This document shows positions 25,713 to 27,037 of a DNA stretch of 64,000 bases, one piece after another. The first letter of the stretch is position 1. The number at the start of each line of letters is the position of its first letter. Below the pieces are notes generated by a model. The model was not told where the DNA came from. It saw only the letters and a list, made by a program, of their open reading frames with translations, and did not search any database. A program made the translations under genes and the position numbers. The stretch lies in the sequence record PP925844.1. One strand, 5' to 3'. The DNA comes from Escherichia phage Elenatom.

Positions 25713-26161
25713 TCAACAATCACAATTTCTAATTTAGAGGAATATGTATCTAAAATCCCCTCAATAATATCCCAGTTCCCTTTACCTATGCCTGCACCAA
25801 TCCTAGGCATATAGATTGTAGGTTTAATCAGTTTATTTTCACCAAACTCATTTAATTCTAACATACAATTCATTAAAGCGGAATACTCAAAATTTGGCCC
25901 TGATTGAAATTGAGTATAAAGGTTGAAGCAATACGCTTTATGAGTCCTAAAGTATTTTTCATAGACTGAGTAAGAACCGAGTTTAGTTACATCACCCCAT
26001 TCAGTCTGTAATTTATCAGCTTCCAAAATTTTAGGGAAAGCTTTGGTTAATTGACCCGCTACGCCTGAACCCATAGTATGAAAACAATTGCATCCATGCG
26101 CAATATTTTTACCTTCAGCGAAAAGGGCGACAATATCGCCCTTGATATATTTTACAATCAT
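25694..26161 (-). CDS. Macro-domain protein, TARG1/OARD1-like (putative ADP-ribose hydrolase)
   Basis: Motifs YIKGD, IAHGCNC, MGSGVAG and MPRIGAGIGKGNW align with human TARG1 motifs as remembered. Confidence 0.65.
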   Translation of the reverse strand: MIVKYIKGDIVALFAEGKNIAHGCNCFHTMGSGVAGQLTKAFPKILEADKLQTEWGDVTKLGSYSVYEKYFRTHKAYCFNLYTQFQSGPNFEYSALMNCMLELNEFGENKLIKPTIYMPRIGAGIGKGNWDIIEGILDTYSSKLEIVIVDWEPLL

Positions 26162-26499
26162 CTAGTACTCAATCCTCGATTATAAGAATCTACCAAACGG
26201 TCAACCATTGAATGACAAGCGGCTTTATCTTTCTCCTCCGCAACTGAACATTCTAAGGTATTCCACTTTTTAGCATATCGTTTTAATAATGTATCGTTTT
26301 TGTATCTGCTTGATTTATCTCTTTCTCCGTCTTTATATGCATATATTAATTTCTGCGCAAATTCAGCTTGGCATGCTTTATTTTTCCCACAATAATCCGC
26401 GGCAGTACGGTTTACATACTCTCTAATTTCAGTATATGATGTATCTGCTAACGCAGAAAATGAAATTAATCCTATACATAAAACCAAAATTTTAGTCAT
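26158..26499 (-). CDS. Secreted/periplasmic Cys-containing protein
   Basis: Signal peptide MTKILVLCIGLISFSALA; 113 aa. Confidence 0.5.
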   Translation of the reverse strand: MTKILVLCIGLISFSALADTSYTEIREYVNRTAADYCGKNKACQAEFAQKLIYAYKDGERDKSSRYKNDTLLKRYAKKWNTLECSVAEEKDKAACHSMVDRLVDSYNRGLSTR

Positions 26500-27037
26500 T
26501 TACTATTTCCAAAAGTTTATTATTTTTAAGGTAATTAGCCTTTTCTAGGACTTCAGAAGCATATTTAGAACCAGCTTTAACATTCCATCCCGAATTATAA
26601 GAGGATATTGCTTTTCTTATATCGCCCTTATGTATATTTAACCAATAAGAAAGTTCAATGTACGCCCAGGAAGCTGAATTGGATCGTTTATTCAACATTC
26701 TTTTTATTTCAGCATCGGTCATATTATAACCAAGTTCCTTAACTCTTGCTCGCATAGTAGGCAAATAATTTTGGAACATTCCATAAGCGTGATGCTTTGG
26801 TTTAGATTTTAAATTAACTCCGCCAGAGCTTTCTTGCCATAAAATAGCAGCCATTATATGACCTAATCCGCTCTTGTGGATATTTTTGTGTGTTTTATAT
26901 TTTCCATCCTTAGAAAATTGTTCCCCGAATTGATACGCGTAACGCATGTTATCGAGTTGGACATTACTGAAAGTATGCTCGGAGCTATGTGCCATCATTG
27001 AAATGGCCAATAGACCAGCGAGTAGTGCTTTTCTCAT
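26492..27037 (-). CDS. Periplasmic lytic transglycosylase (SLT domain)
   Basis: Signal peptide MRKALLAGLLAISMMAHS; catalytic-region motif ILWQESSGG, GMFQ, YNSGW. Confidence 0.65.
   Translation of the reverse strand: MRKALLAGLLAISMMAHSSEHTFSNVQLDNMRYAYQFGEQFSKDGKYKTHKNIHKSGLGHIMAAILWQESSGGVNLKSKPKHHAYGMFQNYLPTMRARVKELGYNMTDAEIKRMLNKRSNSASWAYIELSYWLNIHKGDIRKAISSYNSGWNVKAGSKYASEVLEKANYLKNNKLLEIVND

What the first reader, a model, noticed from the sequence alone, without database searches (positions are those of the whole stretch)
26158..27037. Signal-peptide pair: secreted Cys protein and periplasmic lytic transglycosylase
Two overlapping genes both begin with cleavable signal peptides. The second has SLT-domain motifs (ILWQESSGG, GMFQ, YNSGW). 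A periplasm-directed murein hydrolase expressed from the early region is distinct from the cytoplasmic endolysin e and the virion lysozyme in gp5, and could act in cell-wall remodelling, superinfection control or lysis timing.
Basis: partly seen in the sequence, partly recalled or inferred. Interest (0 to 1): 0.4.

Follow-up and report, generated by a model that had tools for sequence, protein, structure and literature searches.

The report
T4 vs.1/vs: exported transglycosylase gene pair
These are the known phage T4 genes vs.1 and vs: an early-expressed cell-wall-cutting enzyme that appears to be sent to the periplasm, always followed by a small four-cysteine protein that also looks exported even though databases call it a modifier of the cytoplasmic valyl-tRNA synthetase.

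Summary
On the minus strand, 26492..27037 encodes Vs.1 (181 aa) and 26158..26499 encodes Vs (113 aa). The genes overlap by 8 nt. The window is a T4-type phage about 98% identical to T4.

Vs.1 passes the Pfam SLT threshold. Its AF2 model (pLDDT 88.5) matches lytic transglycosylases. Glu69 and the GxFQN and YNxG motifs are invariant down to 30% identity. The SLT similarity was already published, so the finding as written is already known.

Both proteins have classic Sec signal peptides, and so do all homologues examined. Three results go beyond the record:
- Vs.1 belongs to a phage-only clade found in 2045 phage records.
- A Vs-family gene lies immediately downstream of vs.1 in 57 of 87 loci, including Acinetobacter phages where the flanking genes differ. 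Searching with Vs found Vs.1 upstream in 27 of 27 loci.
- Across the Vs family, only the initiator Met, the cysteines and two glycines are conserved. One lineage carries a lipoprotein signal instead.

This conflicts with the annotation "valyl-tRNA synthetase modifier".

Published T4 data show that both proteins are made. Both mutants are mildly unfit, and vs mutants are strongly unfit in minimal medium.

Best reading: an exported peptidoglycan-remodelling pair. Its physiological role is untested.

The parts
26492..27037 (-). vs.1 CDS, 181 aa. Predicted exported GH23/SLT-type lytic transglycosylase (T4 ORF 61.4, UniProt P13311).
   Evidence: ORF. Pfam SLT E=1.4e-5, above the gathering score. 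phrog_600. AF2 pLDDT 88.5. Foldseek hits to MltD, Slt and Slt70. 100% identical to the T4 protein in X04567.
26984..27037 (-). Vs.1 signal peptide, residues 1-18 (MRKALLAGLLAISMMAHS | SEHTF).
   Evidence: Rule-based scan. The N-terminal hydrophobic segment is kept in 77 of 87 family ORFs while its sequence varies. pLDDT is about 52 here and above 90 in the body.
26819..26845 (-). Motif ILWQESSGG (residues 65-73). The candidate catalytic Glu69 codon GAA is at 26831..26833.
   Evidence: Sequence. E69 is invariant and S70 nearly invariant. It aligns in register with the ES motif of E. coli MltE and Slt70, though those alignments are statistically weak.
26771..26782 (-). Motif GMFQ (residues 86-89). 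Counterpart of the GLMQ motif of family-1 lytic transglycosylases.
   Evidence: G86, F88, Q89 and N90 are invariant.
26585..26599 (-). Motif YNSGW (residues 147-151). Counterpart of the (A/S)YNxG motif.
   Evidence: Y147, N148 and G150 are invariant.
27044..27047 (-). Shine-Dalgarno GAGG, 6 nt upstream of the vs.1 ATG. It overlaps the end of regB.
   Evidence: Sequence AATGAGGTAAGCATG. An RBS is annotated at the same place in X04567.
26158..26499 (-). vs CDS, 113 aa (T4 ORF 60.9, UniProt P13310). Annotated 'valyl-tRNA synthetase modifier'. Predicted here to be an exported four-helix protein with four cysteines.
   Evidence: ORF. phrog_1256 E=5e-40. Homologues. AF2 four-helix model, pLDDT 79. 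No known fold relative.
26446..26499 (-). Vs signal peptide, residues 1-18 (MTKILVLCIGLISFSALA | DTSYTE).
   Evidence: The segment is variable in sequence and length but always hydrophobic in homologues. It is replaced by a lipobox signal (..ALSGC) in one lineage. pLDDT is below 50.
26492..26499 (-). 8-nt overlap between the vs.1 stop and the vs start (ATGACTAA). Probable translational coupling.
   Evidence: The same tight junction (about -8 to +8 nt) occurs in all 57 loci that carry both genes.
26158..26161 (-). 4-nt overlap ATGA between the vs stop and the tk.4 start.
27045..27506 (-). regB (context). First gene of the same leftward early transcription unit.
   Evidence: Pfam REGB_T4 E=1.4e-68.
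27534..27562 (-). Sigma-70-like promoter (TTTACT-17-TATAAT with TG) upstream of regB. Likely early promoter for regB-vs.1-vs.
   Evidence: Consensus scan only. T4 regB, vs.1 and vs RNAs are classed early.
25694..26161 (-). tk.4 (context). Macro-domain gene immediately downstream.
   Evidence: Pfam Macro. Named AdfM, an anti-DarTG2 factor, in bioRxiv 10.1101/2025.11.20.689424.

Best explanation
The pair is T4 vs.1-vs.

Vs.1 is made early, from the transcript that starts upstream of regB. It is predicted to be exported by Sec and cleaved after Ala-His-Ser18. That releases a soluble, basic 18.8-kDa enzyme of the GH23/SLT type into the periplasm. There Glu69 would act as the single acid catalyst that cuts MurNAc-GlcNAc bonds of the sacculus, as lytic transglycosylases do.

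Vs is translated from a start codon that overlaps the vs.1 stop. It is exported in the same way and becomes an 11-kDa four-helix protein, probably held by two disulfides.

The two most likely act in one periplasmic pathway. Vs may work as a partner that stabilises, targets or tunes Vs.1. The outcome would be limited, non-lytic remodelling of peptidoglycan during the pre-lysis period. This improves phage fitness, most clearly in minimal medium.

Shown here:
- gene structure and family membership;
- conservation of the catalytic motifs, the export signals and the cysteines;
- strict gene linkage.

Taken from published data: expression and mutant fitness.

Inferred:
- export and signal-peptide cleavage;
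- enzymatic activity;
- disulfides;
- a physical or functional Vs.1-Vs interaction;
- the physiological purpose.
For: Identity of the genes:
- The region is 98-100% identical to T4-type phages, and the protein is 100% identical to T4 ORF 61.4.

Enzyme assignment for Vs.1:
- Pfam SLT scores above the gathering cut-off.
- The AF2 model has pLDDT 88.5.
- The best fold matches are all GH23 proteins: MltD, Slt, Slt70, a GH23 chitinase, phi6 P5 and T7 gp16.
- E69, G86, F88-Q89-N90, Y147-N148-G150 and Y159 are invariant to 30% identity.

Export:
- Signal-peptide features occur in both proteins, and in only 4 of 130 window ORFs. One of the other two is the known periplasmic rI.
- 77 of 87 Vs.1-family ORFs and 57 of 57 Vs-family ORFs pass the same scan.
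- One Vs lineage has a lipobox signal.
- Across 19 diverse Vs sequences, the invariant positions are M1, C37, C43, G58, C95 and G109. A fourth cysteine is present in all but placed in two different alignment columns.

Linkage:
- Vs lies immediately downstream of Vs.1 in 57 of 87 loci. This includes Acinetobacter phages that lack regB and tk.4 at the flanks.
- Vs.1 lies immediately upstream in 27 of 27 loci found with Vs as the query.

Expression:
- Both T4 proteins were detected by MS. Their RNA is classed early and their protein middle.

Fitness:
- Both genes are non-essential.
- Transposon mutants of both carry about 10-fold fewer reads than their neighbours.
- LB to M9 log2FC is -2.19 for vs (adjusted p = 0) and -0.87 for vs.1 (p = 0.0055, adjusted p = 0.155).
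Against: - No experiment shows export, cleavage, muramidase activity or a Vs.1-Vs complex. SignalP and a complex prediction could not be run.
- Classical work (cited; the rest is my recollection) describes the vs product as a factor of about 10 kDa that binds cytoplasmic ValRS. If ORF 60.9 really encodes that factor, a purely periplasmic role is contradicted.
- Similarity to solved transglycosylases is weak. There is no significant PDB sequence hit. The best Foldseek E-value is 6.5e-3 with TM 0.43-0.54. The hhalign comparisons to MltE and Slt70 are not significant.
- Vs.1 homologues in Ackermannviridae, Felixounavirus and Aeromonas phages have no Vs, so the enzyme does not need it.
- Gene linkage could reflect operon inheritance. 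The vs.1 transposon phenotype could be a polar effect on vs.
Confidence: 0.6

Rival explanations
1. The annotation is right and the adjacency is incidental. Vs stays in the cytoplasm, binds host valyl-tRNA synthetase and changes its properties. Its hydrophobic N-terminus is not used for export, or only part of the protein is exported. Vs.1 is an unrelated neighbour.
For: - Database names and phrog_1256.
- Classical biochemistry cited in PMC8076793.
- The vs knockout is impaired specifically in minimal medium, where aminoacylation could be limiting.
- Four cysteines could in principle bind a metal in the cytoplasm.
Against: - The N-terminal segment varies in sequence and length but always looks like a signal peptide. 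One lineage has a lipoprotein signal instead.
- It is not part of the predicted fold.
- Family-wide conservation is limited to the cysteines and glycines.
- Linkage to an exported enzyme outlasts the surrounding synteny.
- The original sequence record lists only 'ORF 60.9'. I could not find the evidence that ties the genetic locus vs to this ORF.
- N-terminally His-tagged full-length protein goes to inclusion bodies.
Confidence: 0.22
2. Vs is a periplasmic inhibitor or immunity protein for Vs.1. The logic would match T4 Spackle and the gp5 lysozyme. Vs would keep the transglycosylase from lysing the cell prematurely, and loss of vs would be harmful because Vs.1 runs free.
For: - Both proteins are predicted to be exported and are probably translationally coupled, with strict gene linkage.
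- vs mutants are more strongly depleted than vs.1 mutants in M9.
- From established T4 genetics (my knowledge), e mutants do not lyse although Vs.1 is made. Its activity must therefore be low or restrained.
Against: - vs.1 insertions are themselves depleted: about 10-fold below neighbours in LB and log2FC -0.87 in M9. An enzyme/antidote model predicts they would be neutral or rescuing.
- Many Vs.1 homologues lack any Vs.
- The Vs model has no fold similarity to Spackle or other known lysozyme inhibitors.
Confidence: 0.1
3. Vs.1 is an auxiliary lysis enzyme. It would be a signal-peptide or SAR-type endolysin that contributes to host lysis at the end of infection.
For: - It has a murein-hydrolase fold and an export signal.
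- Some records call its homologues 'lysin' or 'putative lysin'.
Against: - The RNA is early, not late.
- The gene is non-essential, whereas e, t and the spanin genes have almost no insertions.
- It is not placed with holin or spanin genes in T4-type phages.
- The hydrophobic core is 13 residues with an AxS cleavage site. That is typical of a cleaved signal, not of a membrane-tethered SAR domain.
Confidence: 0.06
4. Vs.1 is a catalytically dead peptidoglycan-binding protein. It would use the GH23 fold only to bind the sacculus.
For: - Sequence similarity to characterised enzymes is marginal.
Against: - The catalytic Glu and all three active-site motifs are invariant across families at 30% identity. 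That pattern is expected for an active enzyme.
Confidence: 0.03

Closest known systems
Family-1 (GH23, Pfam SLT PF01464) lytic transglycosylases: E. coli Slt70 and MltE, P. aeruginosa MltD and Slt
   Same: - Alpha-helical lysozyme-like fold.
- E-S, G-x-(M/F)-Q and (A/S)-Y-N-x-G motifs in the same order.
- Periplasmic location.
   Different: - Only 13-17% identity in the Foldseek structural alignments to these transglycosylases.
- No significant PDB sequence match.
- Phage-only clade.
- Carries a conserved family-specific N-terminal extension (residues about 19-58).
- No lipid anchor and no accessory domains.
Small signal-peptide-bearing 'specialised' transglycosylases of secretion and conjugation systems (VirB1, IpgF/IagB, plasmid R1 P19). 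Comparison from my own knowledge, not tested here.
   Same: - About 160-200 aa.
- Sec signal followed by a single SLT domain.
- Thought to make local, non-lytic gaps in peptidoglycan.
   Different: - No sequence relationship was detected.
- No trans-envelope machine is known to be assembled with Vs.1.
- Vs.1 has a dedicated small exported partner gene.
Virion-borne phage transglycosylases and lysins (T7 gp16, phi6 P5)
   Same: - GH23-type fold. Both appear among the fold hits.
   Different: - Those enzymes are packaged in the virion and act from outside during entry.
- Vs.1 has a cleavable export signal and is made early inside the infected cell.
T4 Spackle (gp61.3)
   Same: - A small early T4 protein with a signal peptide that acts in the periplasm on a murein hydrolase (PMC7677548, PMC7650644, listed).
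- This is the nearest precedent for what Vs might be.
   Different: - No sequence or fold similarity to Vs.
- Spackle targets the incoming gp5 lysozyme, not a co-expressed enzyme.
T4 lysozyme e and the gp5 lysozyme domain (GH24)
   Same: - Murein-cleaving enzymes encoded in the same window (30183..30674 and 43706..44203).
   Different: - Different glycoside hydrolase family.
- No significant similarity.
- e is cytoplasmic until the holin fires, and gp5 is a virion protein.
T4 Vs, 'valyl-tRNA synthetase modifier' (tau factor)
   Same: - The 113-aa protein is this gene's product (97% identical to the 115-aa T4-type form).
- The predicted mature mass of 11.0 kDa is close to the roughly 10 kDa reported for the factor (the reported value is from memory).
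   Different: - The predicted export signal, the family-wide invariant cysteines and the lipoprotein variant do not fit a cytoplasmic ValRS ligand.

Membership tests
Pfam SLT / GH23 family-1 lytic transglycosylase | Profile score above the curated threshold | tested here: met
   PF01464 scores 25.1 bits against a cut-off of 21.3, E=1.4e-5, over residues 61-154. The margin is small.
Pfam SLT / GH23 family-1 lytic transglycosylase | Single catalytic Glu in an E-S motif, conserved in homologues | tested here: met
   E69 is invariant and S70 nearly invariant in 29 and in 16 sequences, down to 30% identity. It aligns on the ES motif of MltE and Slt70, though those alignments are weak.
Pfam SLT / GH23 family-1 lytic transglycosylase | G-L-M-Q-type and (A/S)-Y-N-x-G motifs | tested here: met
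   G86-M-F-Q89-N90 and S146-Y147-N148-S-G150. G86, F88, Q89, N90, Y147, N148 and G150 are invariant.
Pfam SLT / GH23 family-1 lytic transglycosylase | Lysozyme-like helical fold | tested here: met
   AF2 pLDDT 88.5. The top Foldseek PDB hits are all GH23 proteins at probability about 1.0. E-values are at best 6.5e-3 and TM scores 0.43-0.54.
Pfam SLT / GH23 family-1 lytic transglycosylase | Produces 1,6-anhydroMurNAc ends (lytic transglycosylase rather than hydrolase chemistry) | not testable with these tools
   This needs muropeptide analysis. Sequence alone cannot separate a transglycosylase from a goose-type lysozyme mechanism.
Sec/SPase I secretory proteins | Basic n-region, hydrophobic core of 7-15 residues, small residues at -3/-1 | tested here: met
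   Rule-based scan only: Vs.1 AHS|S and Vs ALA|D. Only 4 of 130 ORFs in the window pass, and one of the other two is the known periplasmic rI. SignalP was not available.
Sec/SPase I secretory proteins | Signal conserved in character but not in sequence across homologues | tested here: met
   One Vs lineage has a lipobox variant.
Sec/SPase I secretory proteins | Demonstrated export and cleavage | not testable with these tools
   This needs fractionation, reporter fusions, or N-terminal peptides from MS raw data.
T4 Vs valyl-tRNA synthetase modifier | Sequence membership in the Vs family | tested here: met
   phrog_1256 E=5e-40. 97% identity to the 115-aa T4-type protein.
T4 Vs valyl-tRNA synthetase modifier | Cytoplasmic location compatible with binding ValRS in vivo | tested here: inconclusive
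   Predicted to be exported, which argues against a cytoplasmic location. Prediction alone cannot exclude a cytoplasmic pool.
T4 Vs valyl-tRNA synthetase modifier | Binds and modifies ValRS | not testable with these tools
   The original papers are not in the library. No complex prediction was possible.
Phage endolysin (lysis cassette enzyme) | Required for lysis, late or holin-controlled, placed with holin and spanin genes | tested here: not met
   The RNA is early. The gene is non-essential, with 46 of 52 TA sites hit. Its neighbours are regB, vs and tk.4.
Proteinaceous lysozyme inhibitors (Spackle; Ivy, MliC and PliC types), considered for Vs | Fold or sequence similarity to a known inhibitor | tested here: not met

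The most novel reading that the evidence does not exclude
The T4 'valyl-tRNA synthetase modifier' gene is mis-assigned or misunderstood. ORF 60.9 (Vs) would be a disulfide-bonded periplasmic (in some phages lipid-anchored) partner of the exported transglycosylase Vs.1. The two would form a conserved envelope-remodelling module of T4-like phages. The minimal-medium defect of vs mutants would then be an envelope phenotype, not a translation phenotype. The classical tau factor would either be encoded elsewhere, or would bind ValRS only once the compartments are mixed.
Probability: 0.35. Interest if true: 0.7.

Novelty: already known. Interest (0 to 1): 0.42.

Why it matters
T4 is the reference phage, yet vs.1 has no assigned role. 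The role of vs has been open since the 1970s. A 2025 transposon screen made vs the strongest minimal-medium fitness gene of T4 and explained it through ValRS.

If both proteins work in the periplasm, three things change:
- That explanation changes.
- A widely copied annotation is wrong.
- A phage-only clade in 2045 phage records, spanning Straboviridae, Ackermannviridae and Felixounavirus, becomes a candidate for a so-far undescribed step: controlled cell-wall remodelling by the phage before lysis.

The tests are cheap. They are mining existing MS data for the mature N-termini, and building single and double knockouts.

Tried and rejected
Searches that gave nothing useful:
- NCBIfam gave no hit for either protein.
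- PDB sequence searches, with a single sequence and with a profile, gave nothing significant.
- hhalign of the family profile against E. coli MltE and the Slt70 C-domain put the motifs in register but was not significant. I use it only as an illustration.

Tools or sources that were not available:
- afdb50 was not available.
I replaced it with two narrower searches.
- The T4 genome review (PMC150520) and the 1975 vs paper (PMC354445) are not held. I could not check how the vs locus was tied to ORF 60.9.
- No complex prediction (Vs.1+Vs or Vs+ValRS) was possible with the tools and caps.

Ideas rejected:
- Endolysin or SAR-endolysin, because of timing, non-essentiality and the short cleavable signal.
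- A paralogue of e or gp5.
- A chance ORF pair, because of conservation and MS detection.
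Full report
WHAT IS THERE

The window is a T4-type myovirus (Tequatrovirus). The 2-kb stretch around the finding is 99% identical to many Escherichia and Shigella phages and about 98% identical to T4.

The finding covers two minus-strand genes. One is 26492..27037 (181 aa). The other is 26158..26499 (113 aa). In T4 they are vs.1 and vs. The 1986 sequence record X04567 lists them as ORF 61.4 and ORF 60.9. The gene order is regB, vs.1, vs, tk.4.

The vs.1 stop and the vs start overlap by 8 nt (ATGACTAA). The vs stop and the tk.4 start overlap by 4 nt (ATGA). vs.1 has a GAGG Shine-Dalgarno 6 nt upstream of its ATG. A sigma-70-like promoter lies upstream of regB; this comes from a consensus scan only.

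The three quoted motifs are at residues 65, 86 and 147 of the 181-aa protein.

Both proteins begin with a basic tripeptide, then an uncharged hydrophobic core of 13-15 residues, then an AxS or AxA site (AHS|SE and ALA|DT). My rule-based scan of all 130 ORFs of at least 60 aa in the window flags only four. They are these two, rI (a known periplasmic antiholin) and one other ORF. SignalP could not be run, so the cleavage sites are predictions.

VS.1 IS A GH23/SLT-TYPE ENZYME

- Pfam SLT scores 25.1 bits against a gathering score of 21.3. That is a pass, but a narrow one.
- The AF2 model is confident (pLDDT 88.5, pTM 0.83).
- Its best PDB neighbours are all GH23 proteins: MltD, Slt, Slt70, a GH23 chitinase, the phi6 lysin and T7 gp16. 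Probabilities are near 1, E-values are at best 6.5e-3, and TM scores are 0.43-0.54.
- At sequence level no solved structure is significantly similar.
- Alignments to E. coli MltE and Slt70 are not significant. They do place E69-S70 on the ES motif and GMFQ on GLMQ.

The strongest argument is conservation. In 29 T4-like homologues, and again in a set reaching 30% identity, the following are invariant: E69, G86, F88, Q89, N90, Y147, N148, G150 and Y159. The wider set includes Aeromonas, Acinetobacter, Felixounavirus and Ackermannviridae phages.

Vs.1 is unrelated to T4 lysozyme. The window also holds e at 30183..30674 and the gene 5 lysozyme domain at 43706..44203.

WHAT WAS ALREADY KNOWN

Nolan et al. 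2006 reported the marginal SLT match of vs.1 in six T4-like genomes and cited earlier PSI-BLAST results. Several GenBank records already say 'transglycosylase SLT domain-containing protein'. The core of the finding is therefore not new.

DISTRIBUTION

tblastn finds Vs.1 relatives in 2045 phage records. A profile search of 5.8 billion proteins listed its best 120 hits. Their source names and contig sizes point to phage genomes. One (P0114) is filed by NCBI under Acinetobacter baumannii but sits on a 169-kb contig of phage-genome size. The remaining 66 hits were not shown.

Relatives outside the T4 group also carry signal peptides:
- Felixounavirus finno gp46, which follows rIIA-rIIB;
- Ackermannviridae Det7 gp70.

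VS

Vs belongs to a very small family. A full HMMER pass over 1.84 billion representatives found 8 proteins. All have an N-terminal hydrophobic signal.

The AF2 model is a four-helix bundle with helices at 20-37, 41-60, 69-84 and 89-111. Residues 1-18 are unstructured. Cys37 and Cys43 flank the first loop. Cys84 lies just before the third loop, and Cys95 lies within helix 4 just after it.

No known fold relative appeared in PDB or BFVD. In particular, there was no match to Spackle or any other lysozyme inhibitor.

In an alignment of 19 diverse members, only six positions are invariant: Met1, Cys37, Cys43, Gly58, Cys95 and Gly109. The fourth cysteine is present in all, but MAFFT places it in two different columns.

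The signal region varies freely in sequence and length. The window protein differs from the 115-aa T4-type form by a 2-residue indel in that region. In one lineage the signal is a lipoprotein signal..ALSGC.

This pattern is typical of an exported, disulfide-stabilised protein. It is not what one expects of a cytoplasmic ligand of ValRS.

LINKAGE

I collected 80 IMG/VR loci with a Vs.1 profile and added the annotated loci and the window. The counts below include many near-identical contigs.

- Of 87 Vs.1-family ORFs, 77 pass the signal scan. The rest are mostly start-codon artefacts of my ORF caller.
- 57 have a Vs-family gene starting within a few bases of the vs.1 stop.
- All 57 of those Vs genes are signal-positive. 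Almost all have exactly four cysteines in the mature part.

The pair persists in Acinetobacter T4-like phages, where regB is not upstream and tk.4 is not downstream. The Mokit ORF is a remote Vs homologue. hhalign gives E=1.5e-5 with the cysteines aligned, and it is 41% identical to the bridging sequence P0090.

Searching with Vs instead found Vs.1 immediately upstream in 27 of 27 loci.

Vs is absent next to Vs.1 in Aeromonas 31/44RR-type phages, Ackermannviridae, Felixounavirus and a group with Vs.1-family proteins of about 213 aa. Vs therefore depends on Vs.1 in distribution, but Vs.1 does not depend on Vs.

PUBLISHED EXPERIMENTAL DATA

In the T4 time-course study (PMC9697503), both proteins were detected by MS and rise during infection. 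Their RNAs are classed early and their proteins middle.

In the HIDEN-SEQ preprint (10.1101/2025.11.20.689424):
- Both genes are non-essential. vs.1 has 46 of 52 TA sites hit and vs has 30 of 32.
- vs is the most depleted T4 gene in M9-glucose relative to LB (log2FC -2.19, adjusted p = 0). A clean knockout plaques poorly on M9.
- vs.1 is also lower in M9 (log2FC -0.87, p = 0.0055, adjusted p = 0.155).
- Already in LB, both genes carry about ten-fold fewer insertion reads than their neighbours tk.4, regB and vs.3.
- The same preprint names tk.4 AdfM, an anti-DarTG2 macrodomain.

In a separate study, full-length N-terminally His-tagged Vs went to inclusion bodies (PMC8076793).

INTERPRETATION

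The best-supported mechanism is as follows. Both proteins are exported by Sec. Vs.1 acts as a soluble periplasmic GH23 enzyme using Glu69. Vs is a co-translated periplasmic partner.

Both mutants are unfit in the same direction. That fits one pathway better than an enzyme/antidote pair, although polarity of vs.1 insertions on vs cannot be excluded.

T4 e mutants fail to lyse (established T4 genetics, my knowledge). Vs.1 activity must therefore be limited or local rather than lytic.

The purpose of the cutting is not known. Possibilities include pre-weakening the wall for efficient lysis, coping with the differently built sacculus of slow-growing cells, and repairing or reshaping the envelope after infection.

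THE CONFLICT WITH THE ANNOTATION

The vs locus was defined by loss of a phage-induced change in host ValRS. A factor of about 10 kDa was purified from the modified enzyme (references listed; the details are from memory).

The predicted mature Vs is 11.0 kDa and the precursor 12.9 kDa. The mass therefore fits the cleaved form, which would be in the wrong compartment.

I could not find the evidence that assigns the locus to ORF 60.9. The 1986 record does not make that assignment, and the key papers are not in the library.

There are three possibilities:
- the assignment is wrong;
- the protein has a cytoplasmic pool;
- the ValRS binding occurs only after the compartments are mixed.

This is the most interesting open point, and it is directly testable.

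VERDICT

The finding is real and correctly read, but it describes known T4 genes with a known SLT annotation.

New here, as far as I could check:
- the family-wide export signals;
- the strict vs.1-vs pairing;
- the clash with the ValRS annotation.

Interest is moderate.

Noticed in passing
window 25694..26161 (-): tk.4, the macro-domain gene overlapping the vs stop, was recently named AdfM. A bioRxiv preprint (10.1101/2025.11.20.689424) showed it protects T4 from the DarTG2 defence system. Most database records still call it 'phosphatase' or 'hypothetical'.
   Followed up: partly
window 26123..26143: A perfect 8-bp GC-rich hairpin (AAGGGCGACAATATCGCCCTT) sits just inside the 5' end of tk.4, right after vs. 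OL631480 annotates the equivalent as a rho-independent terminator on the gene strand. It could attenuate transcription between vs and tk.4.
   Followed up: no
window 23778..24071 (-): rI antiholin (97 aa), the known periplasmic lysis-inhibition sensor, lies about 2 kb downstream in the same orientation. In Acinetobacter phage Mokit (L009 1980..3847), vs.1 and vs are followed directly by two more signal or TM ORFs and then by rI. That looks like an envelope-directed gene cluster.
   Followed up: partly
window 17283..17690 (-): A 135-aa ORF (MKQLIIKRLNLLICCLCVVIAYGYY...) is the only other ORF in the window that passes the signal/TM scan. It was not identified.
   Followed up: no
L040, L041, L043, L044, L058 (about 3549..3875; L041 at 2495..2821): In one T4-like lineage the Vs homologue starts MKKLFVLLVVFALSGC..., a lipoprotein-type signal with a lipobox. 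It has five cysteines instead of four.
   Followed up: partly
L025 3541..3798; L043 3549..3746; L110 1501..1828: In a few phages vs is truncated or split by a frameshift (85 aa, 65 aa, 65+55 aa) while vs.1 is intact. This is consistent with vs being dispensable under some conditions.
   Followed up: no
L006 3105..3796 (Aeromonas phage 31): Where Vs is missing, the slot between vs.1 and tk.4 holds a 75-aa ORF and a 146-aa ORF annotated 'putative membrane lipoprotein'. This is another envelope-directed protein in the same position.
   Followed up: no
public records listed: Annotation errors are propagated. Vs.1 homologues are named 'RegB site-specific RNA endonuclease', 'endoribonuclease', 'ABC transporter ATP-binding protein' or 'C-type lysozyme'. 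Vs is often named 'valyl-tRNA synthetase', as if it were the enzyme itself.
   Followed up: no
window 26863..26983 (-), Vs.1 residues 19-58: Between the signal peptide and the Pfam SLT region, Vs.1 has a conserved family-specific segment (F23, Q27, N30, A34, Y35, G38). It contains a helix and a short hairpin, and is shortened in the Acinetobacter-phage group. It could be a partner-binding or substrate-binding element.
   Followed up: no
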